A stretch of 64,000 nt of DNA. Source: Chloroflexota bacterium (lineage in GTDB: Bacteria; Chloroflexota; Anaerolineae; UBA1429). The notes beneath the pieces are model-generated. The model worked only from the letters and a program-made list of their open reading frames with translations. It did no database searches and was not told the DNA's origin. The stretch lies in the NCBI GenBank assembly GCA_012841405.1, contig DUUT01000054.1, forward strand, positions 6,220 through 70,219, in the 5' to 3' direction. The first letter of the stretch is position 1. Each line of letters begins with the position of its first letter. Below are positions 2,342-38,266 of this stretch, in pieces. A program made the translations under genes and the position numbers.

Positions 2342-3739
2342 CTACCTCATTGCAGTTGCCAGGCGTTTGAGGGCGTCCACCACGGGGCTGACCCAGCCGT
2401 TGCGCTGAAAGAGGGCCTGCCACTCAAAGGCATCGTCATGGCCGCCGCCCGCCTGGTTGGCGAGAATCCAGTAGGTATAGGCGAACGTGTAGGGCTCTGC
2501 CTGGGTCGCCATGTAGCGATAGGCGCCCGATATGAGGTCGACCTGCTTGGCTTCGTCGACCTGCTCGTTCACATAGGTGCCCGCTTCGGTGCCCACAATG
2601 GGGATGATGCGCCCCAACTCGCGCTGCAGGATGTCGGCGTACTGCCGGAAGCGCAGGAACCCGTCGGGGTTGTCCAGCGGCAGGTTCCCGGCATAGTTGT
2701 GCATGCTCAGCCAGCCACGATCGAGCAGCCATTCTTCGCCGCGCTCCTTGAGTCCCCGCAACGCCTGCGTGAGGAAACTGCGGTCGTCCACCTCGCCCTG
2801 CGGGCTGAGCGCCCCGAACCCGGGCAGCCCGCCAGCGGCCACGACGCGCTTGGCGGCGGCGATCCAGACGTCGAGGTAGCGGTTCACGTCCGGGTCGGCA
2901 CCGTCGTTCTCCAGACGGAGATTCGGCTCGTTGTACAGCTGGAAGTAGGAGACGCCGAGCTGCTTGTAGTGGCGTACCAGCGCCTCGAGGTCGCCCATGA
3001 TCGGCGCGAGCCCGGGCGTATAGACGCGCATGACCGGCATGATGCCGCTCTGTACGAGCTTGGACACGAGATAGTCATTGGCGCCGATCTGCGTACCCTC
3101 GTTGAGGATGACCATCCACTTGATGCCCATCTCTTGGGCCTCGCGCACAAAGCGATCGACGACCTCGGGAGTGCTGGACACCGTCGGAATCCAGTGCATT
3201 CCCCAGCCATTGTCAGCGACGGGCCGAGGGTACTCCTCCAGCGCCATCGGCTTACGGCCGGCGATGGGCCCGACGTTGCTCCTGCCCTTGACGGCGCCCA
3301 CCTGCGTCGCGCGCGTGGCGTCGATAGGCGCTGGCGCACTGGCCCCTGTCGAGCCGGTAAGTTGCGCCGGGAGGGGAGTGTCGGGAGGCGGCATGGCTGG
3401 CCTCCCATTGGGCATCACCGGGTCCTCGGGGGCTCTGTCAATGGTCCGTGGTGGAACCCGTACGCGCCCGGCCTGGCGGTACACCTTGGGTACGGCGGCG
3501 GTCCTCAGGTAACGGGTCTGCTGCCACGTCCGCGCTCGCGCGGGAGCCTGCGGTTGAGGCTGTGGCTGAGGGGCACTCTCCGCCGGCTGGGATTCGGCGC
3601 GTTTCCCGTCGAGGAGCAGAGCGAAGGACTGCCCGTTGGGCTGCCCATTTGGCGCGACGGGATGCGGCAGGCGCCCCTCAGTGAGAGAAGCCGGGGACTC
3701 TGCCCGTACCATCGTAATGTCACGCATAGCGTCCGTCAT
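2342..3739 (-). CDS. Clan GH-A (beta/alpha)8 glycoside-hydrolase-like protein with ~165-aa Pro/Gln/Ala-rich disordered N-terminus; first gene of the flgC-fliE-fliF operon
   Basis: 465 aa. The C-terminal 300 aa show the 4/7-superfamily pattern: GMHWIP, IKWMVILNEG, MPVMRVY, YFQLYNEPN (Asn270-Glu271-Pro272 acid/base motif), WLSMHNY, IPIVGTEAG (Glu385, putative nucleophile), YTYWIL. No signal peptide or TM segment. The stop lies 6 nt before the flgC start. Confidence 0.6.
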   Translation of the reverse strand: MTDAMRDITMVRAESPASLTEGRLPHPVAPNGQPNGQSFALLLDGKRAESQPAESAPQPQPQPQAPARARTWQQTRYLRTAAVPKVYRQAGRVRVPPRTIDRAPEDPVMPNGRPAMPPPDTPLPAQLTGSTGASAPAPIDATRATQVGAVKGRSNVGPIAGRKPMALEEYPRPVADNGWGMHWIPTVSSTPEVVDRFVREAQEMGIKWMVILNEGTQIGANDYLVSKLVQSGIMPVMRVYTPGLAPIMGDLEALVRHYKQLGVSYFQLYNEPNLRLENDGADPDVNRYLDVWIAAAKRVVAAGGLPGFGALSPQGEVDDRSFLTQALRGLKERGEEWLLDRGWLSMHNYAGNLPLDNPDGFLRFRQYADILQRELGRIIPIVGTEAGTYVNEQVDEAKQVDLISGAYRYMATQAEPYTFAYTYWILANQAGGGHDDAFEWQALFQRNGWVSPVVDALKRLATAMR

Positions 3740-3910: not shown

Positions 3911-3998
3911 GTTGTCGTGAAGTAGCTGTGAAAAGAATGTGAATGCGAGGGATGTAGAAAAAGACAAAAGAGGATATTGAGGGTAAAAGCAGCGAGGC

Positions 3999-4078
3999 GA
4001 GGAGGTGGTCTTCTCGGAGGAGGTCTCTTCTCGAGGGAGCCTTCCTTTCGGAGGCCTCCTCTAGGAGGCCTCCTCCAG
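3999..4078. repeat. Degenerate tandem repeat, five units of 14-18 nt rich in GGAGG (plus strand) / CCTCC (minus strand), spanning the sortase stop codon
   Basis: Units: GAGGAGGTGGTCTTCTCG / GAGGAGGTCTCTTCTCG / AGGGAGCCTTCCTTTCG / GAGGCCTCCTCTAG / GAGGCCTCCTCCAG. The last two contain the self-complementary 10-mer GGAGGCCTCC twice (4050-4059 and 4064-4073) flanking the sortase TAG. Confidence 0.6.
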
Positions 4079-4885
4079 AGGGGCGGGGGCAGCGATGACG
4101 ATGAGCCGGTGCGAGTTATCGCGATAGGGCCAGCAGGTGACCAGTGTGAGGCGTTCATCGATGGTGGGGGCAATCCAGAGGGCATTCTGCGCCCTCTGCT
4201 CCTCCGAAACGTGCTTCTCTGGCACGATAAAGCGCTCGCGCACGAGGTAGCGATAGGTCGTCTCTCCCGCGGCGAGGTACACCTCATCCCCCGGCGCCAC
4301 ATCCACCAGGTAGCGAAAGACCTCACCGCGGATGTTGTGGTGCCCCGCGAGCACGACGTTGGTCCCCTCACCGGGCAGGGCGGATCGCTCCAGCCACCCC
4401 ACGGCGGTGCCGGGATCCTCCCAGAGCACGCTCCCGTCCGCTTCCTCGCGCCAGCCCATCGGTACGACGGTTGCGCGGAGGCCGATGGCCGGGATAGCGA
4501 GCTCGGAGGGGGGCGCCTCGGCCAGCGGGATGGCGGGGGGCGGGGGCGCAATCGTCGGTGAGGGCGTCGCCGTCGGTCTAGGAAGGGGGGTGGCGGTCGT
4601 AAGGTAGGCTAGGGGCCGCGGCGGGAGTTGCTGCGGCGGAACGCCTGGCGGAGGGGCTGCCGTGGCGTCGTGCGCCGGCTGGAGCGCCGGTGTCGTGGGG
4701 CGGTCCTCGACGGCAGCACCCGCCGACGGGAGGTGCTCGGCGGTGGGTATCACCACGGTGATACGATTACAGGCCGTGCACTGGAGCAGGCAGACGGTGG
4801 CCGCCAGGAGCGCCAGACCTCGGCGCGCCCCAGACGGCCACCAGAGATGGGTGTGGGTAGCCATGGGCCGGTCAGAGCGATTCAC
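4061..4885 (-). CDS. Sortase-family transpeptidase (membrane-anchored, Pro-rich linker)
   Basis: 274 aa. N-terminal hydrophobic anchor GLALLAATVCLLQCTAC, then a Pro/Thr/Ala linker. The catalytic domain has NVVLAGHHN (His), the TLVTCWP (TLxTC) Cys motif and a downstream Arg (HRLIVIA). GTG start with GCGAGGT RBS, 36 nt after flaG. Confidence 0.85.
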   Translation of the reverse strand: MNRSDRPMATHTHLWWPSGARRGLALLAATVCLLQCTACNRITVVIPTAEHLPSAGAAVEDRPTTPALQPAHDATAAPPPGVPPQQLPPRPLAYLTTATPLPRPTATPSPTIAPPPPAIPLAEAPPSELAIPAIGLRATVVPMGWREEADGSVLWEDPGTAVGWLERSALPGEGTNVVLAGHHNIRGEVFRYLVDVAPGDEVYLAAGETTYRYLVRERFIVPEKHVSEEQRAQNALWIAPTIDERLTLVTCWPYRDNSHRLIVIAAPAPLEEAS

Positions 4886-4921: not shown

Positions 4922-5305
4922 CTAGAGCCGCGTCTCGATGAGGGAGCCGACCTGCGCATTCCCCTCGTAGAGTAGCTTGAGGATCTCCTCCGGCGGGATC
5001 GTGCGGATGACTTGGCCGGACCGACGATCAATGATGCGCACGCTGACCTGCTTGGTGGTGCGATCAATGACAAACTGGACGTACGCATCGCGAAAGGGGC
5101 CGTTGGGCGGCTCGCGCTCTGCCTCGCCGTCGGGCGTGGCGCCCTCGTCCGAATGCCGCACACGCGCCGGTGGTACCCAGTCCTGTCCGGGCGTGGTGAG
5201 TGGATCAACCGAGTTACTCCCCATGAACCGTGCCCACTCGGCGAGGCGCACGGTGAGCCGGTCGATGGGGGGTAGGTTCTCGATCGCGGAGATCGAGTGT
5301 GGCAT
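4922..5305 (-). CDS. flaG: Flagellar protein FlaG
   Basis: 127 aa. The C-terminal VQFVIDRTTKQVSVRIIDRRSGQVIRTIPPEEILKLL matches the FlaG family signature. GAGGAG RBS. Located next to fliD. Confidence 0.8.
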   Translation of the reverse strand: MPHSISAIENLPPIDRLTVRLAEWARFMGSNSVDPLTTPGQDWVPPARVRHSDEGATPDGEAEREPPNGPFRDAYVQFVIDRTTKQVSVRIIDRRSGQVIRTIPPEEILKLLYEGNAQVGSLIETRL

Positions 5306-9054: not shown

Positions 9055-9082
9055 TTATCGGCTCGGAGCAACGCGCCTAGAG
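9055..9082 (-). promoter_or_regulatory. Sigma-28 (FliA)-type promoter of fliC: CTCTAG-N14-GCCGATAA
   Basis: The minus strand reads CTCTAG GCGCGTTGCTCCGA GCCGATAA. The -10 is an exact match to the FliA/SigD consensus GCCGATAA. The same architecture recurs at 37331, 23400 and 15991. Predicts a leader of about 150 nt. Confidence 0.6.
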
Positions 9083-10863: not shown

Positions 10864-12053
10864 CTCACAGGGTTCAGACGCCTCTCGAACGGTGCGGCCA
10901 AGGGAGTGGTGGAGAGCCCAAAGCGGCTGGCGATGGCCTGGGCGATGCGCTCGCCAGCGTGACCATCACCGAACGGGTTGGGCGCAGAGGCCATGCGTCG
11001 GTAGCTCTCCGCGTCGGTAAGCAGGCGCTCGGCCTCGCGGACGATGCGCTCTGCGTCGGTGCCGACGAGCAGCGCTGCTCCCGCTTGGACGGCTTCGGGG
11101 CGTTCAGTGGTATCGCGCAATACGAGCACGGGCACATTCAAGGAGGGGGCTTCCTCCTGGATGCCGCCGGAATCCGTCAGGATCAGGTGCGACCGCCGCA
11201 TCGTGTGGGCAAAGGCGACATAATCGAGCGGCTCGACGAGGCGGATGTTGTCCCGCCCCGACAGCAGGCCAAAGACGGTCTCGCGTACGCGCGGATTGAG
11301 GTGCACGGGGAGGAGAAAGGTATCCTCCGGGTGTGCGTCGGCCAGACGAGACACCGCGTCGCAGATGCGGTGGAGGGGGGTGCCCAAGCTCTCACGGCGG
11401 TGCGTCGTGACGAGGATGAGCCGACCCGAGAGCCCCTGCAGCGGGGCATCAACGGGTGCCCAGGGGCGACTGACCACGTCGAGGAGGGCGTCGATCACCG
11501 TGTTCCCCGTCACGGTGATGCCGTCGGGTGCCACCCCCTCGCGCAGGAGGTTCTGGCGAGCGGCCTCGGTGGGTGCAAAGTGCATCGCGGCGATCGCGCC
11601 GGTGAGGCGACGGTTCATCTCTTCGGGGAACGGGTTGAGCGGATCGCCGGTTCGCAGCCCTGCCTCGACGTGGCCAACGGGCACGCGCCGGTAAAAGGCC
11701 GCCAGGGAGCCCGCGAATGCTGTGGTGGTATCGCCCTGCACGAGGACGACGTCCGGCTTTTCCGCCTCGATGACCTGCGACACACCCTCGAGCACCCGCG
11801 CCGTGAGGAGCTCCAGGCTCTGGCGCGGCTGCATGACGTCGAGGTCGTATTGCGGGACGATGTCAAACGTCGCGAGTACCTGATCGAGCATCTGCCGGTG
11901 CTGGGCGCTCACGCACACGGTGGTGGTCAACTGGGGCAGCGCGCGCAACGCGCGGATCACCGGTGCCAACTTGACGGCTTCGGGGCGCGTGCCCAAGACG
12001 ACGAGGACGCGCGCGCCAGCGGGCCGATGTCTGCAATCCGTTGACGGTGCCAT
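10860..12053 (-). CDS. wecB: UDP-N-acetylglucosamine 2-epimerase (non-hydrolysing)
   Basis: VLVVLGTRPEAVKLAPVI...VCVSAQHRQMLDQVL..F.I.P.YDLDVMQP.QSL..LTARVLEGV...KPDVVLVQGDTTT...AAFY..VPVGHVEAGLRT...PFPEE.NR are classic WecB/MnaA motifs. I trimmed the 475-aa ORF to the ATG at 12053 (MAPSTDC...), because the upstream part is low complexity and overlaps the preceding gene. Confidence 0.9.
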   Translation of the reverse strand: MAPSTDCRHRPAGARVLVVLGTRPEAVKLAPVIRALRALPQLTTTVCVSAQHRQMLDQVLATFDIVPQYDLDVMQPRQSLELLTARVLEGVSQVIEAEKPDVVLVQGDTTTAFAGSLAAFYRRVPVGHVEAGLRTGDPLNPFPEEMNRRLTGAIAAMHFAPTEAARQNLLREGVAPDGITVTGNTVIDALLDVVSRPWAPVDAPLQGLSGRLILVTTHRRESLGTPLHRICDAVSRLADAHPEDTFLLPVHLNPRVRETVFGLLSGRDNIRLVEPLDYVAFAHTMRRSHLILTDSGGIQEEAPSLNVPVLVLRDTTERPEAVQAGAALLVGTDAERIVREAERLLTDAESYRRMASAPNPFGDGHAGERIAQAIASRFGLSTTPLAAPFERRLNPVR

Positions 12054-12081
12054 AGGTCTCTTCACGCAGCCTTTCTCCGCC

Positions 12082-14751: not shown

Positions 14752-14809
14752 GCAAGCTCACTCTCCGTGGGGCTCACCGTGGAATGCGGCAGCCGGCGGT
14801 CATAGCGTC

Positions 14810-15907
14810 TCAATCGAGGGTCAGGCTGGTACGCCGGTACTGAGGCGTCACCGCCTGCAGGGCGCGGGTCACTGTGGGTTGGTCGGGCACCAGCGCAAGG
14901 GATTCCTCCCAAAGCTGTCGGGCGCGGCCAGTATCGCCCGCAGCGTGGCAGCAGTCGGCCAGCGCGTTCAGTGTGTGCACCTTGGGCCCCGGATCGGGCG
15001 TCTCGGCCCAGCGCCTGCGGCGCTCCTCGATGGCGCAGTGTTGGTTGAGCGCCTCCTCGAGCATGGCGATGGCCAGCTCGAGATCGCCCCGGTCGCGGTA
15101 GAGCTCGCCGAGCTCGTGCCACGCCTCGGCATAGTCGGGGCGTAGCTTGATCGCCCGTGACAGGAATGCCTCGGCCTCTTGTGACAGGCCGCACGCCCGG
15201 GAGCACACGCCCAGGCGGAAGTAGCCCTCCTCGTGCTGATCATCGGCGAGCACCACGTTGCGAAAGTGGGCCAGCGCTTCGCGATGACGGTCCTGCATCT
15301 CGAGGATGAGGCCCAGCCCCAGGTTCAGGGAGACGTCATCGGGGTGGTGCGCCAGGGCGCCACGCAGCACCTCACCCGCCTGGCGCAGGTCGCCCTGTTC
15401 GAGGTGAATCCGTGAGAGGGCGGCGGCACTCCCCAGGTCATCGGGCCGCAGCCTGACGGCCTCGGAGTAGAGGACGATGGCATCCTTCACGCGGCCCAGG
15501 CGCAGCGCACTCTCGGCCATCTGGCCATACACCGCGGCGTCTTCGGGGCAGGCCAAGACGACTTCCTTGTAGCAGGAGAGCGCCTTGTCGTGTTCTCCGA
15601 GCCGCTGATAGACCGCGGCAAGGTTGTAGTAGACATCGACGTCGTCGGGCAAGAGTCGCGCTGCGCGGAGGAGGTGCTGTTGGGCCTCCTGGAGGCGCCC
15701 TTGGTGGACCAAACAGACGCCGAGATGCGCCAATCCCTCGCCCCAGCGTGGGTCGTCGTCCAAGGCGCGCTGGAGCAGCGTCGCGGCTTCCATCCAGTTC
15801 TCGGCCAACAGGGCATCCTCCGCCTGGCGGCGTACGTCAAGGAGAGGAGTTGCGAGCGCTCCATCTGCGGGCGCAAGAGGCTCTGCCTGCTTATCACTGC
15901 TTGGCAT
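14810..15907 (-). CDS. TPR repeat protein (first gene of the TPR/glycosyltransferase operon)
   Basis: 365 aa made almost entirely of 34-residue repeats: WGEGLAHLGVCLVHQGRLQEAQQHLLRAARLLPDD, VYYNLAAVYQRLGEHDKALSCYKEVVLACPED, and so on. Confidence 0.8.
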   Translation of the reverse strand: MPSSDKQAEPLAPADGALATPLLDVRRQAEDALLAENWMEAATLLQRALDDDPRWGEGLAHLGVCLVHQGRLQEAQQHLLRAARLLPDDVDVYYNLAAVYQRLGEHDKALSCYKEVVLACPEDAAVYGQMAESALRLGRVKDAIVLYSEAVRLRPDDLGSAAALSRIHLEQGDLRQAGEVLRGALAHHPDDVSLNLGLGLILEMQDRHREALAHFRNVVLADDQHEEGYFRLGVCSRACGLSQEAEAFLSRAIKLRPDYAEAWHELGELYRDRGDLELAIAMLEEALNQHCAIEERRRRWAETPDPGPKVHTLNALADCCHAAGDTGRARQLWEESLALVPDQPTVTRALQAVTPQYRRTSLTLD

Positions 15908-16132: not shown

Positions 16133-16648
16133 CTAGGTGAACGCAGAGACGTTCGCGGTGTAGCTGGCGAACTCGACGGGGGCGTCAGGGTTCTCGCAGA
16201 GGGCGAGATCGAGCCCAATCTCGCCCACATTGGTGATCAGGGGGATGGAGATGCGCTCCATGTTGAGCGTGAACACGCGCGAGCCCTTCCCGATGATGAG
16301 CATGGGCACTGAAATGATGGAGGCGTACCCCACTTCGGCGAGCTTGGTGCTGGAGAGCCCGGTGATGACGTTGGCGAGCTCGGCGATGCCACTCTGTGCC
16401 AGCTCGTCGAACGCGTCAAACGCCTGGCCGAGGATGGCCGAAACGAGGGCCTGGGCCGTCTCGTAGCTCATGTAGAGCAGCACGGTGCCCTGTACGCGCC
16501 CCACGAGGCTGATGAGCACCGTGACATCGCTCGACACAAAGAGCCCTTTCTGCACACGTATCGGGCCGCGGGAGACGTCGGTGCCTACCTCCTGCTGAAG
16601 AACACTGGCTGCGGCGGCAATAAACGGATTGAGAAATTCGACCTTCAT
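16133..16648 (-). CDS. cheX: CheX-like CheY-P phosphatase (CheC/CheX/FliY family), copy 2
   Basis: Trimmed to MKVEFLNPFIAAAASVLQQEVG...DELAQSGIAELANVITG. The ELxNVIxG phosphatase motif and about 170-aa size fit CheX. The ATG at 16648 was verified in the sequence. Confidence 0.8.
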   Translation of the reverse strand: MKVEFLNPFIAAAASVLQQEVGTDVSRGPIRVQKGLFVSSDVTVLISLVGRVQGTVLLYMSYETAQALVSAILGQAFDAFDELAQSGIAELANVITGLSSTKLAEVGYASIISVPMLIIGKGSRVFTLNMERISIPLITNVGEIGLDLALCENPDAPVEFASYTANVSAFT

Positions 16649-16686
16649 GGCATCGATCCCTGTGCGTGGTGTGGCACCATCCCCTC

Positions 16687-17178
16687 TCACTGAGCGGCGA
16701 GCACCGTGGAGGACGCGTTGCCCTCCCGCAGGGCCAGGAGGATGTCGATATCGCCATACTGTGTTTGCAGGGGCACGGCCAGGAGCTGCAGCTCGGGCGT
16801 CGCGATGCGCGTATCCGCCCCGAGGATGACGGTGGGCGTCGAGATGTTGCACTCGTAGCCTGCCTGCGCGAGCTTGATACTTGCCCGACCGGTGATGACG
16901 TTGCCTAGCTCAGCGATGCCGCTCTGCGCCAGCTCGTCCATGTCGCAAAGCGTGTCGCCCATCATGCACGAGACCAACTGGAGGGCCGTGGCGGTGGAGA
17001 GCCCGTAGAGGACCATCCCGTCCACCCGGCCGATGAGGCTGAGGGTCACGGTCACATCGCGCGCCGTATAGAGCGAGCGATGGAGCGTCACCGGCCCGCG
17101 GGTGATGGATGCGCCGACCTCCGCATGGAGCACCTCGGCGGCGGCTTCGATGAACGGGTTCAGGTATCTGACGTTCAT
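16687..17178 (-). CDS. cheX: CheX-like CheY-P phosphatase, copy 1 (tandem paralog)
   Basis: 163 aa. MNVRYLNPFIEAAAEVLHAEVG...DELAQSGIAELGNVITG is clearly paralogous to the next gene. Its start overlaps the cheR stop (ATGA). Confidence 0.8.
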   Translation of the reverse strand: MNVRYLNPFIEAAAEVLHAEVGASITRGPVTLHRSLYTARDVTVTLSLIGRVDGMVLYGLSTATALQLVSCMMGDTLCDMDELAQSGIAELGNVITGRASIKLAQAGYECNISTPTVILGADTRIATPELQLLAVPLQTQYGDIDILLALREGNASSTVLAAQ

Positions 17179-31479: not shown

Positions 31480-33573
31480 ATGACTGCAGCAGCGACCGTC
31501 GCCCAACCGAAAAACGCCTCGCAGCGCAACGACTTGTTCATCACCGTGGCCTTGGCCCTGATCATCGGCATGATGATCGCGCCACTGCCATCGTTGTTGC
31601 TCGACATGGCGCTGATCCTGAACATCGGCATCTCGGTGCTCATCGTGCTGATCGCTATGTACATCACCGAGCCGCTCCAGTTCTCCGTGTTCCCGTCGCT
31701 CCTGCTCATCATCACCCTCTTTCGGCTGGGCCTGAACGTCTCGGCGAGCCGCATGATCCTGGCTCAGGCGACGGCTGGACGCGTCATCGAGACGTTCGGC
31801 GGCTTTGTTGTCGGCGGCAACTATGTCGTGGGGGTGGTGGTCTTTGTCACCCTGTTGGTGATCCAGTTCCTGGTGATCACCAACGGCGCCGGCCGCGTGG
31901 CAGAGGTGGCCGCACGCTTTACGTTGGACGCCATGCCCGGCAAGCAGCTCAGCATCGATGCCGACCTGAACAGCGGCCTCATCGACGAGGCGGAGGCCCG
32001 CAGACGGCGCCGCATGGTCGAGCAGGAGGCGGATTTCTATGGGGCGATGGACGGCGCCTCCAAGTTCGTCAAGGGCGATGCCATCGCCGCCGTGGTGATC
32101 GTGGTGGTGAACATCATCGGCGGGTTCGTCATCGGCCTGTGGCAGCACGGCATGGACATCATCGAGGCGCTCGAGACCTATACGCTACTCACGGTGGGCC
32201 AGGGGCTGGTGACCCAGATTCCTTCCCTGCTCGTGTCCACGGCCACGGGGCTGATCGTCACGCGTTCGGCGTCCGAAGAGTCGCTGGGCAGCGATGTGAC
32301 GCACCAGCTCTCCGACGGCAATGCGATGATGCTGATGGCCGGTTTTCTTATCCTGCTGGGCCTCGTGCCGGGCATGCCCAAGGTCCCGTTCCTGGGGCTG
32401 GGCGTGGCGTTGGGGGTGGTGGCGGCCGTGATCCGCAGCCACCGGCAGGCCGTGGCCGGCGCGCTCGGCGAGGACGCCGAGGGGGCCCCGGCGGCCGGGG
32501 CCGCCCAGCTGGAGGCGGGCGACACGCCCAAGGCGCTGCTGCAGGTCGATCCGCTGGAAATCGAGCTGGGCTTTGCGCTCATCCCCTTGGTGGACGAGAC
32601 GCAGGAGGACAACCTCCTGAACCGCGTCACCAGCATTCGGCGCCAGCTCGCCATGGAACTCGGCTTTGTGCTGCCCAAGGTGCGCATTCGCGACAACCTC
32701 CGCCTGCCCACCAACCGCTACCGCATCAAGCTCCGTGGCGCCGAGGTGGGCCAAGGCGAGCTGTTGCTCGGCCAGATGCTGGCCATGCCCACACAGCCAG
32801 GCGTGCCCGAGCCCGAGGATGGCCACCGCACGGCCGAACCTGCCTTTGGCCTCCCTGCCTGGTGGGTGGACACGTCCACCCAGGCGCAACTCGAGCTCAT
32901 GGGCTACACCGTGGTCGACCCGCTGTCGGTGCTGGTGACGCACCTATCCGAGACGATTCGCGCCCACGCGCCGCAGCTCCTCAGCCTGCAGGACGTGCAG
33001 GACTTGCTGGATAACCTACGCCAGGCAGCGCCCGCCGCGGTGGATGGCGTGGTTCCTGAGCGCCTGACGCTGAGCGAGCTTCAGGAGGTGTTGCGCAACC
33101 TGCTGCGCGAGCGCGTCTCGATTCGTGACCTGGGAACCATCCTCGAGACGGTGAGCCGCTACGCGGATACCCGCGACACGGCACTCCTCACCGAGCTGGC
33201 GCGGCGTGCCCTTTCCTACGCCATCTCCGATCAGCATGCGGAGGAGGGCATCATCCACGTCGTGACCCTTGATCCGGCCACGGAGGCCGAGCTCGTTGAT
33301 CGGCTGGACCACGGGCAGGGAGGAGCGCCGAACGCACTGGCGCTGGACCCCGCCTCGGCGCAGGAGCTGCTCCAAGAGATCGGGCGCGCAGTGGAGCAGC
33401 TGGCCCAAGTGGGGCATCAGCCGATCCTACTCTGCTCGGCGGATGTTCGGCGGCCGCTGGCGCGCCTGACGGAGCGCTCGCTGCCGAACCTGACGGTACT
33501 GTCATACAACGAGATCGCGCCTACGGTACAGGTAGAGGCGCACGCCATGGTAACGCTACGCATGGCGGCGTAA
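31480..33573 (+). CDS. flhA: Flagellar type III export gate protein FlhA
   Basis: 697 aa. FSVFPSLLLIITLFRLGLNVSASR.IL, VVGGNYVVGVVVF..L.VIQFLVITNGAGRVAEVAARFTLDAMPGKQ.SIDADL, FYGAMDGASKFVKGDAIA. Confidence 0.95.
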   Translation: MTAAATVAQPKNASQRNDLFITVALALIIGMMIAPLPSLLLDMALILNIGISVLIVLIAMYITEPLQFSVFPSLLLIITLFRLGLNVSASRMILAQATAGRVIETFGGFVVGGNYVVGVVVFVTLLVIQFLVITNGAGRVAEVAARFTLDAMPGKQLSIDADLNSGLIDEAEARRRRRMVEQEADFYGAMDGASKFVKGDAIAAVVIVVVNIIGGFVIGLWQHGMDIIEALETYTLLTVGQGLVTQIPSLLVSTATGLIVTRSASEESLGSDVTHQLSDGNAMMLMAGFLILLGLVPGMPKVPFLGLGVALGVVAAVIRSHRQAVAGALGEDAEGAPAAGAAQLEAGDTPKALLQVDPLEIELGFALIPLVDETQEDNLLNRVTSIRRQLAMELGFVLPKVRIRDNLRLPTNRYRIKLRGAEVGQGELLLGQMLAMPTQPGVPEPEDGHRTAEPAFGLPAWWVDTSTQAQLELMGYTVVDPLSVLVTHLSETIRAHAPQLLSLQDVQDLLDNLRQAAPAAVDGVVPERLTLSELQEVLRNLLRERVSIRDLGTILETVSRYADTRDTALLTELARRALSYAISDQHAEEGIIHVVTLDPATEAELVDRLDHGQGGAPNALALDPASAQELLQEIGRAVEQLAQVGHQPILLCSADVRRPLARLTERSLPNLTVLSYNEIAPTVQVEAHAMVTLRMAA

Positions 33574-33598
33574 TGAACTGCCCGAGAAGGAGATTGCG

Positions 33599-34003
33599 AT
33601 GAGTACCATCCCATCCGAACCCATCGATGTAACCAGCGAGATGGAGACGTTCTGCCACTGGGGGATTCGCGTCGCATGGTACCTGTCGCTGTTGTGGGGT
33701 GGCCTGGTGTTGCTCCTGTCGTGGACGGGGGGCGCCGCAGCGGCGATAGCGGTAATCCGTGGGCTTGTCGCGTTCCTGGCGATCGGGCTCGTGGGTTGGG
33801 GCGTGAATGCCGTGATGGTGCACGCCGGCGCCCAAGACGCGCAAACCACGAGCGCGTCGGCGGACGCGATGGAGGGCTCGGAGACGCAGGAAACGGGCCC
33901 GGCGGACGAGGCGGCGCTTGCCGGTGTGGAAACGGAGGCGAACCGGGGCGATACGGCAACGATGGAGACCGACGCGGGCGCGCCTGCCGACGCGACCTCG
34001 TAA
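33599..34003 (+). CDS. Small hypothetical membrane protein with acidic C-terminal tail (occupies the usual flhF/flhG position)
   Basis: 134 aa. GAAGGAG RBS. Predicted TM helices (VAWYLSLLWGGLVLLLSW, AAAIAVIRGLVAFLAIGLVGWGVNAVMV), then an Ala/Glu/Asp/Thr-rich tail. No family recognised. Confidence 0.6.
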   Translation: MSTIPSEPIDVTSEMETFCHWGIRVAWYLSLLWGGLVLLLSWTGGAAAAIAVIRGLVAFLAIGLVGWGVNAVMVHAGAQDAQTTSASADAMEGSETQETGPADEAALAGVETEANRGDTATMETDAGAPADATS

Positions 34004-34048
34004 GAGTTGGGGCTAGAGTACGGGATAGACGCCTGGGGGGCGAGGCCA

Positions 34049-34873
34049 ATGGACGCGACAACTTCAAAGATGGATACAAAACAGATCTGGGAGCGGTATG
34101 ACGAGACGCGCGACCCGGAGCTTCGTCAGGAGATCATCACCCGGAATATGCACCTCGTGCGCTACGCGGTAGAGCGCCTGGGATTCGGTGTCTCTTACCT
34201 GGATCGCGAGGACCTGATCAGCGAGGGGATCATCGGCCTCATCGACGCCGTCGATCGCTTTGATCCCAAGCGGGGGATCCAGTTCGTCACCTATGCCACC
34301 ATCCGCATTCGGGGGCAGATCCTAGACGCCCTGCGCACGCGCGACCTCTTGCCGCGGTCGGCTCGTCGCCGGGTGAAGGGCATGCAGGAGGCGGTTCAGA
34401 CGCTCGTAGCGACACTAGGGGAGCCGCCCACCGAGGAGCAACTGGCTGAGTACATGAACGTCAGCGCTGAGCAGCTGCAGCAGACGCTGTGCGACGCCAG
34501 CCTCGAGATCTGCTCGCTGGATGCTCCCCTCGTCGAGGACGGGGAGACGTTCTCGCTGCAGAATCTCATCGAGGCATCGGAAGAGTTCGAGCCAGCCGAA
34601 CAGCAGGCCCGTGCCGAGCTGCACGAGGAGATGCGCCTGGCCATACGCAAGCTCCCCGAGCGGCAGCAGTTGCTCCTGTCGCTGTACTACGTGGAAGAGC
34701 TGACCATGCGCGAGATTGGCGAGGTGCTGTCGGTCTCCGAGTCGCGGGTGAGCCAGCTCCATGCTCAGGCGGTCACGAACCTGCGTGCTCTGCTCGAGAC
34801 TGCGGGCTATATCGAGAGGCCGCTCGTGCACGCGGCGCCAGCGCCCCTGGCCATGATGGCGGGGACTGCCTGA
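34049..34873 (+). CDS. fliA: Flagellar sigma factor FliA (sigma-28 / SigD)
   Basis: Region 2: DLISEGIIGLIDAVDRFDPKRGIQFVTYATIRIRGQILDALR. Region 4: LPERQQLLLSLYYVEELTMREIGEVLSVSESRVSQLHAQAV. About 270 aa, with no region 1 or region 3 expansion. The start could be 34049 or 34070. Confidence 0.9.
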   Translation: MDATTSKMDTKQIWERYDETRDPELRQEIITRNMHLVRYAVERLGFGVSYLDREDLISEGIIGLIDAVDRFDPKRGIQFVTYATIRIRGQILDALRTRDLLPRSARRRVKGMQEAVQTLVATLGEPPTEEQLAEYMNVSAEQLQQTLCDASLEICSLDAPLVEDGETFSLQNLIEASEEFEPAEQQARAELHEEMRLAIRKLPERQQLLLSLYYVEELTMREIGEVLSVSESRVSQLHAQAVTNLRALLETAGYIERPLVHAAPAPLAMMAGTA

Positions 34874-34938
34874 GCACGACGGCCGAACTGTGTCTGGAAT
34901 ATCACTGCGCCGGTGGGAACGGCCCCGGCTATGAAAGG

Positions 34939-35706
34939 ATGCGATCCGTGCGACACGAGCTCTTTGTAGGACGTGCTGCTCCAGTCATCATGGCGATGGC
35001 GCTGCTACTCGCCCTTGCACTGGCCCTGCCACCTGCCGCCAGCGCCAATGGCAAGGGGGTAACGGTCTATCTCGGTTACCTGCCCGAGGTGTCGACCTGG
35101 GGCCCCTTTGAAGCGACGGGAGAGGCCTATGTGAATGCGGGTGAGGCGCGCGCGCACATCACCGTCGACCACATGATCTACGATCCTGCCATCCGCTACG
35201 AGGTGTGGCTGGTCCGCGCGGATGACCGAAACAGTCTCTTTAGCGTGGGCTCCTTTGAGGTCGATAGCGACGGCCACGCGGACGTCGAGCTGTACAATCC
35301 CGACCTCAAGCCGGCCGAGTTCCGTTTCTTGGTCATCAGTGCCGAGCCCGTACCCGACGACGATCCGCGACCCGATGCGCGACGCACCGTGGCCGGTGTC
35401 TTTCCGAACGAGATGGCGCGGCCCGTCGCCGGTGGGGCCGCGGGCTTTGACGGCATATGGGCGCAACCCCCCGAGGCCGCCGGCGGCGCGGGAGCTCTAC
35501 ATGAGGGCTCGAATGCTGGGCCGCCGTCCGATGCTGTCGGCGCGGCTCCGCCCCGGTTGCCCGTGACGGGGGGCACCTCGACGCCGCTCGCTCTGGTGCT
35601 CGCCGTGATGAGCATGGCCTCGCTCGGCTTGGTCGTCGCCGGCGAACGCAAGTGCCGCATCGCTGCCCGCGCTCAACGCGAGCTGACACGAGGAGAAATG
35701 CAATGA
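34939..35706 (+). CDS. Secreted cell-wall-sorted protein: signal peptide, beta-rich ectodomain (RskA-C-like pattern), LPVTG sortase signal
   Basis: MRSVRHELFVGRAAPVIMAMALLLALALALPPAASA|NG signal peptide. Ectodomain with ...IRYEVWLVRADDRNSLFSVGSFEVDSDGHADVEL....FRFLVISAEPVPDD. C-terminal LPVTG (35557-35571) + GTSTPLALVLAVMSMASLGLVVAG + ERKCR. The upstream part of the 405-aa ORF is an out-of-frame overlap with fliA and was discarded. The stop overlaps the flgF ATG (ATGA). An alternative GTG start lies at 34948. Confidence 0.75.
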   Translation: MRSVRHELFVGRAAPVIMAMALLLALALALPPAASANGKGVTVYLGYLPEVSTWGPFEATGEAYVNAGEARAHITVDHMIYDPAIRYEVWLVRADDRNSLFSVGSFEVDSDGHADVELYNPDLKPAEFRFLVISAEPVPDDDPRPDARRTVAGVFPNEMARPVAGGAAGFDGIWAQPPEAAGGAGALHEGSNAGPPSDAVGAAPPRLPVTGGTSTPLALVLAVMSMASLGLVVAGERKCRIAARAQRELTRGEMQ

Positions 35707-36458
35707 TCGAGGGGATCTATACATCCGTTTCGGGCATGACGGCGGCCATGTGGCTGCAGGCGCGCCTGGGCCACGACATGACGAACGCCAACACCGTGGG
35801 TTACAAGAGCATCCGCACATCGCTGAGCGATTTCGCCGTGCTGCTGGAGACGATGGACGCCGAGGGGAACGTCAACATCCCCGATGTCATCGTGCACGAT
35901 GACGGCAACGGCGTGGCCATCGCCCAGGAGAGCACGGACTGGAGCCAGGGGCCGCTGCGGAACACGAATCGCCCTCTCGACGTGGCCATCTCGGGGCAGG
36001 GCTTTCTCGAGGTGCAGACCCCAGCAGGGATTCGCTACACGCGTGCCGGCAGGCTCCACCAGGATCAGGAGGGGATGCTCATCACTGCCGAGGGGCACGC
36101 AGTGATGGGAGATGCTGGGCCCATTCAGCTCCCTGTGGGCGACATCACCATCGGCGAGGGCGGAGAGGTGATTGTGGATGGCGAGCCGCGTGCGCGCCTC
36201 ACCATCGTCGAGTTTGGCAACCTCGAGGCGCTCGAACGGGTGGGAGGCACGTTATTCGTCGCGGGGGATGGCGCTCTGCCCCAGGCGGCCACCGAATCGC
36301 GCGTCCAGCAGGGCTATCTCGAAGGCGCGAACGTCGACATGAGCAGTAATATGACCAGCCTGATCGCCATCCAGCGCCTCTATCAGCTCGCTCAGCGCAT
36401 GACGCTGGCGCAAGATGATATCCTCAACCAGACCGTCAATGAACTGGCCAAAGTGTAA
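35703..36458 (+). CDS. flgF: Flagellar basal-body rod protein (FlgF/FlhO-like)
   Basis: MIEGIYTSVSGMTAAMWLQARLGHDMTNANTVGYKS... and C-terminal VQQGYLEGANVDMSSNMTSLIAIQRLYQLAQRM are rod-family N- and C-terminal motifs. Confidence 0.85.
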   Translation: MIEGIYTSVSGMTAAMWLQARLGHDMTNANTVGYKSIRTSLSDFAVLLETMDAEGNVNIPDVIVHDDGNGVAIAQESTDWSQGPLRNTNRPLDVAISGQGFLEVQTPAGIRYTRAGRLHQDQEGMLITAEGHAVMGDAGPIQLPVGDITIGEGGEVIVDGEPRARLTIVEFGNLEALERVGGTLFVAGDGALPQAATESRVQQGYLEGANVDMSSNMTSLIAIQRLYQLAQRMTLAQDDILNQTVNELAKV

Positions 36459-36503
36459 CACCCTGGGCGGACCGCCCCAGGTGATGTGCGAGGTATCCAC
36501 GCC

Positions 36504-37286
36504 ATGATCACAGCCCTAGCATCATCGTACAAGCTGGCCGCATCGGGCATGCGTGCCAACCAAATCCATCTCGACGTCGTATCGAACAACATTGCCAACG
36601 CCAACACTCCGGGGTTCAAGAGCAGCCACGCCTACTTTGCCGAGGCGCTGGACAGCGCCGCTGGGGGGCCCGACGCCCTCGATGCGCGGCGCTACCTCGG
36701 GGTCCGCGTCGCCAACACGAGCCCGAACCTCGCCCAGGGGACGTTGGCGCCCTCCGATGCGCCGTGGCACATGGCCATCGACGGGGCGGGCTACTTTCAG
36801 ATCCGCCTGCCCGATGGCACGCCGGCCTATACGCGTGACGGGCGCTTTGCCCTGGACGCCAGGCGTCGACTCGTGACCGTCGACGGCTATCTGCTCGAAC
36901 CGGCGGTGACGCTTCCCGAGGGCGCCCAAGAAGCGCACGTGAACCCCGATGGCACCATCATGGCCGAGTTTGCCGATGAGCAGGGGGGGCGCGAGCGGCG
37001 CGAGGTGGGGCGCATCACGGTGATGGGCTTTATCGTTCCCGAGCGCCTGCAGCACATTGGGAAGAACCTGTTCGCGGCGACGCCCGAATCCGGGGCGGCC
37101 ATGCCGCAGCGGCCGGACGGCCAGCCCTGGGGCGAGATCGTTGCCCAGGCCGTCGAGGGCTCGAACACAGAGCTCGCCGACGCCATGATGGACCTCGTCA
37201 GTGCGCAGCGGGCCTACGCCGTCTCGGCGCGGGTGCTACAGACCTATGACGAGATGGCCGCCGAGGCTGCCAACCTGAAGCGGTAG
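36504..37286 (+). CDS. flgG: Flagellar distal rod protein FlgG (FlhP-like)
   Basis: MITALASSYKLAASGMRANQIHLDVVSNNIANANTPGFKS... and C-terminal VEGSNTELADAMMDLVSAQRAYAVSARVLQTYDEM. Confidence 0.9.
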   Translation: MITALASSYKLAASGMRANQIHLDVVSNNIANANTPGFKSSHAYFAEALDSAAGGPDALDARRYLGVRVANTSPNLAQGTLAPSDAPWHMAIDGAGYFQIRLPDGTPAYTRDGRFALDARRRLVTVDGYLLEPAVTLPEGAQEAHVNPDGTIMAEFADEQGGRERREVGRITVMGFIVPERLQHIGKNLFAATPESGAAMPQRPDGQPWGEIVAQAVEGSNTELADAMMDLVSAQRAYAVSARVLQTYDEMAAEAANLKR

Positions 37287-37330
37287 CCGCCACGGATGGT
37301 CATCCATTCGTTGATCCGCCTCCCCCTGGG

Positions 37331-37358
37331 CTCAAGACAGCACCCTCCATGCCGATAC
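37331..37358 (+). promoter_or_regulatory. Sigma-28-type promoter of flgM-flgN-flgK-flgL-fliW-csrA: CTCAAG-N14-GCCGATAC
   Basis: CTCAAG ACAGCACCCTCCAT GCCGATAC, about 95 nt upstream of the flgM ATG. Same architecture as the fliC promoter. Confidence 0.55.
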
Positions 37359-37450
37359 TATCGCTGTAGTCGCGTCACCTTGCGACGAGTCCGTGTGGCT
37401 GGGCTCGGCCCAAGAGCCAACATCACTCTGGGGGAACAAGGAGTATCCTG

Positions 37451-37744
37451 ATGAGGATTGACGGCAGAACGGATCCAATCTACAGGATTACGCAAAAACT
37501 CTGTACGCCAGGCGGCAGGGATTCGGCGCGAGGAGACACCCCGGCGCTGCAGAGTAGCGACCAGGTGACACTCTCGTCGCGGGCCCAAGCGATCAGGCGC
37601 ATGTACCAGGCGCTCACAAGCGTACCGACCGAGCGCGCCGAGCGCATCGCGGCGCTGCGCGAGGCGGTACAAAGCGGCAGCTACGAGATCCCCGAGGATG
37701 CGTTGGCCGCACGCCTGATAGGCGTCATCTATCCGGAAAGGTAA
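37451..37744 (+). CDS. flgM: Anti-sigma-28 factor FlgM
   Basis: 97 aa. C-terminal ...ERAERIAALREAVQSGSYEIPEDALAARLI matches the FlgM sigma-28-binding region. AAGGAG RBS. Confidence 0.8.
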   Translation: MRIDGRTDPIYRITQKLCTPGGRDSARGDTPALQSSDQVTLSSRAQAIRRMYQALTSVPTERAERIAALREAVQSGSYEIPEDALAARLIGVIYPER

Positions 37745-37747
37745 GGT

Positions 37748-38266
37748 ATGCGCGATCACATCGGCGCATCAGAGCTAACGTCTTTGGTCGAGGCCGAGGT
37801 CGGTATCTGCGACGAGATGGTGCATCTGGCGCAGCGCGAACAGCACGCACTGGCCCGCTTTCGGCCGGCGCATCTGCCCGAGCTCCTCGCCGCGCAGGAC
37901 GATTGCGCGCATCGCTTTGCCCGAACCCATGAGGCGTTGGAGGCATCCATCGGTAGGGCTGCGGAGCACGTGGGCATCGCCGATGCGGGCAGCCCATCGC
38001 TAGACGTCTCTGCCCTCTTGCCATACCTCCCGCCGGATGCGCGGGAACGCCTCGAGGACCTGCGTAGCGCATTGGAGGGGCGGGCCTACACCCTCGCCGT
38101 GCTGAATGCTCAGAACGCCCTGCTCGTGCGCACGGGGCTCGTGCAGCTGGGCCAGACGGCGAACGTGCTGGCCGATGTGCTCGGTGAATCCCCGGCCTAC
38201 GGCGCGAGCGGCAGTGTGTGCCTGCCTACTGCCAACCACACCCTTGTCCTCGACCGCCAGGCGTAG
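37748..38266 (+). CDS. flgN: FlgN-like export chaperone (for FlgK/FlgL)
   Basis: 172-aa helical protein between flgM and flgK. ...LVEAEVGICDEMVHLAQREQHALARFRPAHLPELLAAQD... resembles the FlgN family. The assignment rests mainly on position and composition. Confidence 0.55.
   Translation: MRDHIGASELTSLVEAEVGICDEMVHLAQREQHALARFRPAHLPELLAAQDDCAHRFARTHEALEASIGRAAEHVGIADAGSPSLDVSALLPYLPPDARERLEDLRSALEGRAYTLAVLNAQNALLVRTGLVQLGQTANVLADVLGESPAYGASGSVCLPTANHTLVLDRQA

What the first reader, a model, noticed from the sequence alone, without database searches (positions are those of the whole stretch)
34939..35706. Sortase-sorted (LPVTG) secreted protein translationally coupled to flgF inside the flagellar structural operon
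Seen:
- The ORF between fliA and flgF encodes a classical Sec signal peptide (…LLLALALALPPAASA/NG).
- It has a beta-rich ectodomain of about 190 aa and a Gly/Ala/Pro linker.
- It ends in a complete Gram-positive cell-wall sorting signal: LPVTG at 35557-35571, a 24-residue hydrophobic stretch and an ERKCR tail.
- Its TGA overlaps the flgF ATG (ATGA at 35703-35706), and it starts 65 nt after fliA, so it is almost certainly co-transcribed and co-translated with rod genes.
- The ectodomain pattern (YEVWLV...SVGSF....DG...L......FLVISAEP) resembles the extracytoplasmic C-terminal domain of RskA-type anti-sigma factors. No anti-sigma N-domain is present.

Established: LPXTG proteins are covalently attached to peptidoglycan by sortases. 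To my knowledge no sortase-anchored protein is a recognised component of any bacterial flagellum, and monoderm flagella lack the P/L-ring bushing.

Inference: this may be a peptidoglycan-anchored flagellar accessory, such as a bushing or collar around the rod, a stator anchor, or a wall-embedded assembly factor. Together with the sortase at 4061-4885 it would form a two-gene module recruited into the flagellar regulon.
Basis: partly seen in the sequence, partly recalled or inferred. Interest (0 to 1): 0.8.

Follow-up and report, generated by a model that had tools for sequence, protein, structure and literature searches.

The report
Sortase-anchored protein in Chloroflexota flagellar cluster
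A single-membrane bacterium of the Chloroflexota keeps, inside its flagellar gene cluster, a wall-attaching enzyme (sortase) and one small secreted protein with the matching attachment signal. The same arrangement recurs in many distant relatives, which points to a so far undescribed flagellar accessory fixed covalently to the cell wall.

Summary
ORF 34939-35706 encodes a 255-aa protein with these parts:
- a Sec signal peptide
- a ~118-aa beta-sandwich
- a ~50-aa disordered Gly/Ala/Pro linker

Its TGA overlaps the flgF ATG.

The beta-sandwich is a divergent RskA_C (PF10099) domain. There is no anti-sigma N-domain.

New evidence:
- **Family size.** The family has at least 389 clusters at 50% identity. 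Every member that carries a source name comes from Chloroflexota. 122 of the family members shorter than 330 aa that were examined carry an LPxTG-type sorting signal.
- **Position of the gene.** In all 12 lineages inspected the gene lies immediately upstream of flgF, with an ATGA overlap in 9 of 11. This holds down to 30% identity. fliA lies upstream wherever that sequence is available.
- **Position of the sortase.** The sortase at 4061-4885 is itself inside the flagellar cluster (flagellin-fliS-fliD-flaG-sortase-unknown-flgC-fliE-fliF). That position is kept in four other lineages. A generic Chloroflexota sortase sits elsewhere.

No paper linking sortases to flagella was found.

A dedicated flagellar sortase-substrate pair is well supported by genomics. 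The physical role (wall-tethered collar, bushing or rod-passage factor) is inference only.

The parts
34939..35706 (+). Gene X: a 255-aa secreted LPVTG protein (signal peptide, RskA_C-like beta-sandwich, linker, sorting signal)
   Evidence: Translation. Homolog family. Structure model.
34939..35046 (+). Signal peptide, residues 1-36: R-rich n-region, hydrophobic core, and ASA just before the conserved N-G
   Evidence: Hydropathy. A36/N37/G38 are nearly invariant across the family. The cleavage site is inferred by rule only.
35047..35418 (+). RskA_C-type beta-sandwich domain, about residues 37-160
   Evidence: AF2 pLDDT is above 94 for residues 40-157. PF10099 scores 19.1 bits for this copy, 34.4 bits for the 76%-identical P0010, and 45.3 bits for the family member P0172.
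35419..35556 (+). Disordered Gly/Ala/Pro-rich linker, residues 161-206: the putative wall-spanning tether
   Evidence: pLDDT is 51-67. Its length and sequence vary across homologs, with a family median of ~36 aa.
35557..35571 (+). LPVTG sortase recognition motif
   Evidence: L207, P208 and G211 are invariant and T210 is nearly so across 84 sequences.
35572..35703 (+). Hydrophobic segment (residues 212-235) plus the 20-aa basic tail ERKCRIAARAQRELTRGEMQ
   Evidence: Tails in the family carry on average +4.5 and -0.9 charges.
35690..35706 (+). flgF Shine-Dalgarno GAGGAG (35690-35695) lying inside the tail codons of X, plus the ATGA stop/start overlap (35703-35706)
   Evidence: The same arrangement occurs in 9 of 11 lineages.
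34007..34873 (+). fliA (sigma-28), immediately upstream of X
   Evidence: Pfam Sigma70 regions r2, r3 and r4. Synteny.
35703..36458 (+). flgF-like distal rod gene, overlapping the stop codon of X
   Evidence: Pfam LlgE_F_G_D1 and Flg_bbr_C.
36486..37286 (+). flgG-like distal rod gene
   Evidence: Pfam.
4061..4885 (-). Flagellar-cluster sortase: N-terminal membrane anchor, a ~80-aa Pro-rich linker, and a catalytic domain with His (AGHH), TLVTC and Arg (SHRLIV)
   Evidence: Pfam Sortase scores 90.7 bits. Sequence. PDB alignment. Conserved position.
4922..5305 (-). flaG, 36 nt upstream of the sortase on the same strand
2342..3739 (-). Conserved 465-aa protein of unknown function that always follows the sortase and precedes flgC
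   Evidence: No family or PDB hit. Synteny. At least 500 homologs.

Best explanation
Gene X encodes a sortase-dependent, peptidoglycan-anchored accessory protein of the flagellum of monoderm Chloroflexota. The sortase at 4061-4885 is its dedicated partner enzyme.

**Proposed sequence of events**
1. X is co-transcribed with fliA, flgF and flgG, and its translation is coupled to that of flgF. The overlap and the embedded Shine-Dalgarno sequence are shown; coupling itself is inferred.
2. X is exported by Sec and its signal peptide is removed after ASA (inferred).
3. X is held in the membrane by the C-terminal hydrophobic segment and basic tail.
4. The flagellar-cluster sortase cleaves it between T and G of LPVTG and joins it to lipid II or peptidoglycan (inferred from the canonical signal).
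5. The RskA_C-type beta-sandwich is left on a ~50-residue flexible tether, within or at the outer face of the wall.

**Proposed role (least certain step)**
There it acts where the distal rod (FlgF/FlgG) crosses the wall. It may be a wall-tethered collar or spacer, or a rod-passage or assembly factor. This lineage lacks P- and L-rings.
For: **The signal is canonical and under selection**
- LPxTG, a hydrophobic segment and a basic tail are found in 122 of the family members shorter than 330 aa that were examined.
- The motif is invariant in an alignment with 23% mean column identity.
- X is the only such ORF in the window.

**X is tied to flgF**
- X lies directly upstream of flgF in 12 lineages. 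Across these, FlgF identity falls to 29-33% and FlhA identity to 52%.
- An ATGA overlap and an internal flgF Shine-Dalgarno sequence occur in 9 of 11 lineages.
- fliA is upstream wherever that sequence is available.

**The sortase is tied to the flagellar cluster**
- The sortase has an intact H/C/R catalytic set.
- It sits in the order flaG-sortase-unknown-flgC-fliE-fliF in the window and in L006-L009.
- X and the sortase are on one contig both in the window and in NODE_528.
- A control Chloroflexota sortase lies next to lgt and holA.

**Context**
- No flgH, flgI or flgA was found in the ~41-kb flagellar region.
- Chloroflexota flagellar clusters lack the L- and P-ring genes and the phylum is regarded as monoderm (PMC10284905).
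- How a rod rotates through thick peptidoglycan in monoderms is stated as an open question (PMC10746217).
Against: - There is no experimental evidence of any kind.
- The flexible tether does not suit a rigid bushing.
- The fold is a generic Greek-key sandwich with no significant match to any solved flagellar protein. The best Foldseek E-value is 5e-3, to an LPMO and to Cu,Zn-SOD-like folds.
- The sorting-signal HMMs score just below their cut-offs for this copy.
- The sortase appears to belong to the filament-gene operon, while X lies with the fliA and rod genes, so their timing may differ.
- Gene position does not prove physical membership of the flagellum.
- Whether the genome has other sortases or other substrates is unknown.
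Confidence: 0.6

Rival explanations
1. X is a regulatory, anti-sigma-like envelope sensor acting on FliA. On this view it descends from an RskA-type anti-sigma factor encoded next to its sigma factor, and it couples wall or flagellar status to sigma-28 activity. This could work through the membrane-retained C-terminal peptide left after sortase cleavage.
For: - The domain is of RskA_C type.
- The gene lies directly downstream of a sigma-factor gene, as rskA does with sigK (my own knowledge).
- NCBI names relatives 'anti-sigma factor'.
- A natural 541-aa FliA::X fusion is present in 8 contigs.
- In the window's close relatives the tail is unusually long (17-20 aa) and conserved.
Against: - There is no cytoplasmic anti-sigma domain and no room for one, because only 65 nt separate the fliA stop from the start of X.
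- A canonical FlgM is encoded 1.7 kb downstream (and synteny).
- Much of the tail conservation is explained by the embedded flgF Shine-Dalgarno sequence.
- Distant family members have ordinary tails of 3-11 aa.
- The tightest linkage is to flgF, not to fliA. In L021-L023 another gene separates fliA from X.
Confidence: 0.12
2. X is a wall-anchored surface protein that is co-regulated with motility, for example one that modifies surface properties of swimming cells. On this view it is not physically or functionally part of the flagellar machine.
For: - The architecture is that of an ordinary LPXTG surface protein, with a wall-spanning linker that displays a small domain.
- RskA_C domains also occur as tandem repeats in very large proteins of 870-5900 aa; two of the four were confirmed as RskA_C by Pfam. 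I take these to be surface proteins, though their location was not checked.
- There is no structural match to flagellar proteins.
Against: - The position against flgF, with a stop/start overlap, is kept over very deep divergence.
- A sortase subclade is embedded in the structural flagellar operons.
- This is far more linkage than co-regulation alone usually preserves.
Confidence: 0.15
3. X is not processed by a sortase. It stays as a C-terminally anchored membrane protein beside the export gate or MS ring, and the sortase in the cluster serves other substrates.
For: - The sorting-signal HMMs fall just below threshold for this copy.
- The sortase and X are 30 kb apart and on opposite strands.
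Against: - L, P, T and G of the motif are invariant or nearly so, while the flanking linker drifts freely.
- No other sorting-signal ORF exists in the window.
- The sortase catalytic residues are intact.
Confidence: 0.08

Closest known systems
Dedicated sortase-substrate pairs of Gram-positive bacteria (for example SrtB-IsdC, class D sortases in Bacillus sporulation, class E SrtE with chaplins or SspA in actinomycetes)
   Same: A sortase with the His/Cys(TLxTC)/Arg set is genetically grouped with a protein carrying a signal peptide, LPXTG, a hydrophobic segment and a basic tail. The pair is recruited to one cellular process.
   Different: Here the process is the flagellum. Enzyme and substrate sit in different operons of one flagellar cluster. 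The sortase reaches no NCBIfam class cut-off: its best score is 55 bits for class E against a cut-off of 160.
RskA, the anti-sigma-K factor of Mycobacterium (Pfam RskA_C, PF10099)
   Same: The extracytoplasmic beta-sandwich domain is homologous by transitive profile evidence. The gene lies next to a sigma-factor gene.
   Different: There is no N-terminal cytoplasmic anti-sigma domain. The membrane helix of RskA is replaced by a cleavable signal peptide. A C-terminal LPXTG sorting signal has been added. The neighbouring sigma factor is sigma-28, not an ECF sigma factor.
P-ring protein FlgI (with its chaperone FlgA), the peptidoglycan-level bushing of diderm flagella
   Same: Both are Sec-exported and act at the peptidoglycan around the distal rod. 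The gene for X is adjacent to distal-rod genes. X occurs in a lineage that lacks flgI and flgH.
   Different: There is no sequence or fold similarity. FlgI is a non-covalent 26-mer ring. X would be attached covalently through a flexible tether, and there is no evidence that it oligomerises.
FlhE, the small Sec-exported beta-sandwich protein encoded after flhBA in enterobacteria
   Same: Both are small secreted beta-sandwiches encoded just downstream of flhB and flhA. FlhE is reported to act on the rod in the periplasm (PMC11247099, abstract).
   Different: No detectable homology was found. No FlhE entry appeared among the top 50 Foldseek PDB matches. FlhE has no wall anchor.
SwrB of Bacillus subtilis, the gene downstream of sigD (from memory, not tested)
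   Same: Both are membrane-associated flagellar accessories encoded directly after the sigma-28 gene in a monoderm.
   Different: SwrB has an N-terminal membrane helix and a cytoplasmic domain. It has no sorting signal and no RskA_C domain.

Membership tests
LPXTG cell-wall-sorted proteins (sortase substrates; PF00746 / TIGR01167) | N-terminal Sec signal peptide | tested here: met
   The n-region is R-rich, the hydrophobic core spans residues 13-35, and ASA precedes NG. This was judged by rule; no predictor was available.
LPXTG cell-wall-sorted proteins (sortase substrates; PF00746 / TIGR01167) | LPXTG pentapeptide followed by a hydrophobic segment and a positively charged tail at the C-terminus | tested here: met
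   LPVTG is followed by 24 hydrophobic residues and a tail containing 5 Arg and 1 Lys. The arrangement is conserved across the family.
LPXTG cell-wall-sorted proteins (sortase substrates; PF00746 / TIGR01167) | Profile score at or above the curated cut-off | tested here: not met
   PF00746 scores 17.8 against 20. TIGR01167 scores 14.4 against 15.9. Both are near misses.
LPXTG cell-wall-sorted proteins (sortase substrates; PF00746 / TIGR01167) | Cleavage at Thr-Gly and amide linkage to peptidoglycan | not testable with these tools
   This needs biochemistry or mass spectrometry.
RskA_C domain (PF10099) | Profile score at or above the gathering score of 29.4 | tested here: inconclusive
   The window's domain alone scores 19.1 bits (E 1.6e-3). 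P0010, 76% identical, scores 34.4. The flagellar-locus member P0172 scores 45.3. The X profile retrieves multi-repeat RskA_C proteins.
RskA-type anti-sigma factor | N-terminal cytoplasmic anti-sigma domain followed by a transmembrane helix | tested here: not met
   The protein begins with a signal peptide. Only 65 nt lie between the fliA stop and the start of X, and no Pfam hit was found.
Sortase (PF04203), for the partner enzyme at 4061-4885 | Sortase domain profile above cut-off, with catalytic His, Cys (TLxTC) and Arg | tested here: met
   The domain scores 90.7 bits against 26.6. AGHH, TLVTC and SHRLIV align with the solved sortase 5K9A.
Sortase classes A-F (NCBIfam class models) | Score above a class-specific cut-off | tested here: not met
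   The best is class E at 55.5 bits against 160. Class C scores 53.9 against 160. The class is unassigned.
Flagellar P-ring / FlgI or other known flagellar structural families | Sequence or fold similarity to a known flagellar component | tested here: not met
   No Pfam or NCBIfam flagellar family was hit. No Foldseek PDB match reached E below 1e-3.
Flagellar gene cluster member (operational definition) | Conserved position within flagellar operons across divergent genomes | tested here: met
   12 of 12 lineages have X immediately upstream of flgF.

The most novel reading that the evidence does not exclude
X is the first covalently peptidoglycan-linked structural element of a bacterial flagellum. 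It would be a sortase-installed functional substitute for the P-ring in monoderms, assembled around FlgF/FlgG by a flagellum-dedicated sortase. In a bolder version, the invariant mature N-terminus (N-G...) serves as the amine acceptor, so that the sortase joins X head-to-tail into a covalent ring or chain anchored in the wall.
Probability: 0.15. Interest if true: 0.9.

Novelty: new variant of a known kind. Interest (0 to 1): 0.72.

Why it matters
How a flagellar rod is held and turns through a thick wall without P- and L-rings is an acknowledged open question for monoderm bacteria (PMC10746217).

This work gives that question concrete, testable candidates. They are lineage-specific genes fixed inside the flagellar cluster of many Chloroflexota:
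- a wall-anchored RskA_C-type protein
- its sortase
- a conserved unknown neighbour

It would also add a new task, motility, to the list of processes served by dedicated sortases. It gives a first functional context for the uncharacterised extracytoplasmic domain of RskA. Finally, it corrects the automatic annotation 'anti-sigma factor' now attached to these proteins.

Tried and rejected
- **Fold searches.** Two AF2 models were searched against PDB with Foldseek. The domain pLDDT was 75-90 with 16 sequences and above 94 with 84 sequences. Only generic Greek-key/Ig-like hits came back (Cu,Zn-SOD, LPMO, ASF1) and none reached E below 1e-3. A profile search of PDB sequences gave nothing.
- **Locus retrieval.** The narrower A5 scan of metagenomes returned only 7 loci. 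The genome-contig scan returned one locus, from an Anaerolineae MAG.
- **Sigma-28 promoters.** TAAA-N15-CCGAT gave no match. One GCCGATAA box lies upstream of the flagellin gene, but it is not conserved in related loci. I therefore make no claim about the sortase's regulatory class.
- **Anti-sigma reading.** I rejected it as the main reading because no cytoplasmic domain exists.
- **Pilin-like polymerisation.** I rejected polymerisation through a lysine because no Lys is conserved in the family.
- **The 465-aa neighbour.** It gave no hit in Pfam, NCBIfam or PDB sequences. Its 'NEP'/'TEAG' glycosidase-like motifs are my reading by eye and are untested.
- **Literature.** Eight full-text searches found no paper linking sortase or LPXTG to a flagellar component.
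Full report
**1. What is at the coordinates**

- ORF 34939-35706 (+) encodes 255 aa.
- Hydropathy shows exactly two hydrophobic segments, residues ~13-35 and 213-236.
- The first segment has an Arg-rich n-region and ends in PPAASA followed by NG, a classical Sec signal by rule.
- The C-terminus reads PPRLPVTG-GTSTPLALVLAVMSMASLGLVVAG-ERKCRIAARAQRELTRGEMQ. This is LPVTG (35557-35571), 24 hydrophobic residues and a 20-residue basic tail.
- The TGA of this gene overlaps the flgF ATG (ATGA, 35703-35706).
- The flgF Shine-Dalgarno sequence GAGGAG (35690-35695) is formed by the tail codons of X.
- The gap after fliA is 65 nt. A GTG at 34948 has better spacing from the AGGA and may be the real start.
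- No promoter-like or terminator-like site was found anywhere in the scanned stretch 33400-37800, from the end of flhA to the start of flgN.
- Codon-position GC is coding-like.
- The Pfam and TIGRFAM sorting-signal models score just below their cut-offs: 17.8 against 20, and 14.4 against 15.9.

**2. The domain**

- With 16 sequences AlphaFold gave a moderate model.
- With 84 family members, residues 40-157 form an eight-strand beta-sandwich with pLDDT above 94. Residues 161-206 are disordered and residues 217-252 form a helix.
- The folded part is therefore ~118 aa, not ~190 aa.
- Foldseek against PDB found nothing below E = 1e-3. The best matches are generic Greek-key sandwiches such as Cu,Zn-SOD and an LPMO.
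- A profile search of PDB sequences found nothing.
  - the isolated domain scores 19.1 bits (E 1.6e-3) against PF10099, below the gathering score of 29.4;
  - a 76%-identical homolog (P0010) scores 34.4;
  - a flagellar-locus family member (P0172) scores 45.3;
  - the X profile retrieves multi-repeat RskA_C proteins.
- No anti-sigma N-domain exists, and there is no room for one.

**3. The family**

- The word-indexed search found only 15 relatives.
- An exhaustive HMM search with the ectodomain profile found 389 representatives of 50%-identity clusters at E ≤ 1e-3, and 164 at E ≤ 1e-10.
- Most are 200-260 aa with the same layout.
- 122 of the family members shorter than 330 aa that were examined carry [LIM]PxT[GAS] followed by a hydrophobic segment and a basic tail.
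- 96 of those 122 keep A-N-G at the predicted signal-peptidase site.
- The linker has a median of ~36 aa and varies freely. The tail has a median of 11 aa.
- In an 84-sequence alignment with 23% mean column identity, the invariant columns are W90, L207, P208 and G211. T210 is nearly invariant. The motif is therefore under strong selection.
- Where sources give names, the organisms are Chloroflexota or Anaerolineae. The names given are 'anti-sigma factor', 'LPXTG-motif cell wall-anchored protein' or 'hypothetical protein'.

**4. Gene neighbourhood of X**

- The window is 65.9% G+C. Its first ~41.6 kb is one flagellar and chemotaxis cluster (synteny with L002).
- On the minus strand, read in the direction of transcription, the order is: cheW, cheA, cheC-like, cheD, cheY, cheB, cheR, two cheX, TPR and glycosyltransferase genes, flagellin, fliS, fliD, flaG, sortase, a 465-aa unknown, flgC, fliE, fliF.
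- On the plus strand the order is: flbD, motA, motB, fliL, fliM, fliN, fliOPQR, flhB, flhA, a 134-aa membrane protein, fliA, X, flgF, flgG, flgM, flgN, flgK, flgL, fliW, csrA.
- No flgH, flgI or flgA is present.
- X homologs were located on contigs from 12 lineages: the window/L012, L001/13-15, L002/3, L004, L005, L011, L016/17, L018, L019, L020 and L021-23.
- In every one X lies immediately upstream of a flgF-like gene. Across these lineages FlgF identity to the window falls to 29-33% and FlhA identity to 52%.
- fliA lies upstream wherever sequence is available. In L021-23 a 170-aa gene (membrane helix plus coiled coil) lies between fliA and X.
- In 9 of 11 junctions the stop of X and the start of flgF form ATGA. 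All 11 have a GGAG-type Shine-Dalgarno sequence inside or at the end of X.
- This embedded Shine-Dalgarno sequence also explains much of the apparent conservation of the long tail (…R-G-E/D…) in the window's clade.

**5. The sortase**

- ORF 4061-4885 (-) matches Pfam Sortase at 90.7 bits.
- It carries AGHH, TLVTC and SHRLIV, which align with the catalytic His, Cys and Arg of solved sortases.
- It has an N-terminal hydrophobic anchor and a ~80-aa Pro-rich linker.
- It reaches no NCBIfam class cut-off.
- It lies 36 nt after flaG on the same strand. A 321-nt gap separates it from the next gene.
- Its relatives show the order fliS-fliD-flaG-sortase-unknown(430-465 aa)-flgC-fliE-fliF-fliG-fliH-fliI-fliJ-SLT-flgB-fliK. 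These are P0017 and P0018 (62-65% identical over the full length), P0038 (47%) and P0031 (58% over the catalytic part).
- P0017 is on the same 98.5-kb contig as the X homolog P0005.
- A control sortase from a Chloroflexota MAG (P0056, 61% identical over the catalytic half) lies between lgt and holA with no flagellar genes nearby.
- Equal contig lengths suggest further co-located pairs of sortase and the 465-aa protein, for example at 72916, 62881, 6532, 5156 and 20524 bp. This is an inference.
- X is the only ORF in the window with a sorting signal.

**6. How it most likely works**

- *Shown:* a canonical and conserved sorting signal; an intact sortase; both genes fixed inside the flagellar cluster across deep divergence; a stop/start overlap with flgF.
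- *Inferred:* Sec export, signal-peptide removal, retention by the C-terminal segment, cleavage at T/G by the cluster sortase, and amide linkage to peptidoglycan. This would leave the beta-sandwich on a flexible ~50-residue tether, up to roughly 15-18 nm if extended.
- *Role:* because it is produced together with the distal rod proteins in a lineage without P- and L-rings, the most economical role is an extracytoplasmic one at the point where the rod crosses the wall. It could be a collar or spacer, a factor that keeps the channel through the wall open, or an assembly aid.
- A rigid bushing is less likely given the tether, and nothing indicates ring formation.
- I give 0.6 to 'sortase-anchored flagellar accessory' and about 0.2 to the specific 'bushing' idea.

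**7. Rival readings**

- *Regulatory or anti-sigma-like role.* For: the RskA_C ancestry, the position after a sigma-factor gene, and a natural FliA::X fusion (P0136, 541 aa, 8 contigs). Against: the lack of any cytoplasmic domain, the presence of flgM, ordinary short tails in distant members, and tighter linkage to flgF than to fliA.
- *Motility-co-regulated surface protein that is not part of the machine.* This cannot be excluded, but it explains the conserved overlap with flgF and the embedded sortase poorly.
- *No sortase processing.* This is unlikely given the invariance of the motif.

**8. Comparison with the known, and novelty**

- Dedicated sortase-substrate pairs are well known. RskA_C is a known but functionally uncharacterised domain. 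Accessory proteins of flagella are many.
- Eight full-text searches found no report of a sortase or an LPXTG protein as a flagellar component or flagellar-cluster gene.
- Papers on Chloroflexota and actinobacterial flagella note the missing P- and L-rings and list rod passage through thick peptidoglycan as an open question. Neither mentions sortases.
- I rate this a new variant of a known kind: a flagellum-dedicated sortase system.
- The genomic evidence is robust. The function is untested. Most carriers are uncultivated, which limits immediate testing.

Noticed in passing
window 2342-3739 (-): A 465-aa protein with no Pfam, NCBIfam or PDB-sequence match always follows the flagellar-cluster sortase and precedes flgC, at the position where flgB is usually found. 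It has no signal peptide, a ~165-aa low-complexity N-terminal part, and a well conserved ~300-aa C-terminal part. The motifs LYNEPN and GTEAG look glycosidase-like by eye, but this is untested. It has at least 500 homologs, all named 'hypothetical' and all from Chloroflexota. It may be a flagellar wall-remodelling enzyme.
   Followed up: partly
protein P0136 (Chloroflexota MAGs; not in the window): A natural 541-aa fusion joins FliA (sigma-28) to the whole X protein (membrane segment, RskA_C domain, LPVTG signal). It is seen on 8 contigs from several sources and is annotated only as a FliA/WhiG sigma factor. If real, it would be a membrane-tethered sigma-28.
   Followed up: partly
window 33599-34003 (+): A conserved 134-aa protein with two predicted membrane helices and an acidic tail lies between flhA and fliA. 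It has no family match. It is kept in L001, L002, L013-L016 at 49-71% identity.
   Followed up: partly
window 9160-15907 (-): Four genes lie between the flagellin gene and the che genes: a GT2+TPR protein, a UDP-GlcNAc 2-epimerase fused to a GT4-like region, a GT1+TPR protein of 889 aa, and a TPR protein. Together they look like a flagellin glycosylation island. The relative L006 also has a radical-SAM/SPASM gene there.
   Followed up: no
L021:9492-10004 (also L022, L023): In a distant lineage a 170-aa gene sits between fliA and X and overlaps both by 4 nt. It encodes an N-terminal membrane helix, a coiled coil and a C-terminal helix-turn-helix-like end. The same locus carries flhF, flhG and a PilZ gene, all of which are absent from the window.
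   Followed up: partly
window 3740-4060: A 321-nt intergenic region follows the sortase. It is noticeably less G+C-rich and begins with two copies of the palindromic GGAGGCCTCC around the stop codon. It probably holds the terminator of the filament operon and the promoter of the unknown-flgC-fliE-fliF operon.
   Followed up: no
window 9055-9062 (-): A GCCGATAA box, matching the sigma-28 -10 consensus, lies ~150 nt upstream of the flagellin start. It was not found at the equivalent place in L006-L009, so it is of uncertain meaning.
   Followed up: yes
L006:18929-19886, L008:10241-11196, L009:14819-15771: In related clusters an SLT-domain lytic transglycosylase and a small FlgB-like rod protein follow fliJ. 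The rod genes are therefore ordered unusually: flgC-fliE-fliF come early and flgB comes after the ATPase genes. The equivalent region lies beyond the start of the window.
   Followed up: no
window 16133-16852 and 16687-17178 (-): Two adjacent CheX/CheC-like ORFs overlap by ~165 nt as listed. The upstream one probably starts later than the longest ORF suggests.
   Followed up: no
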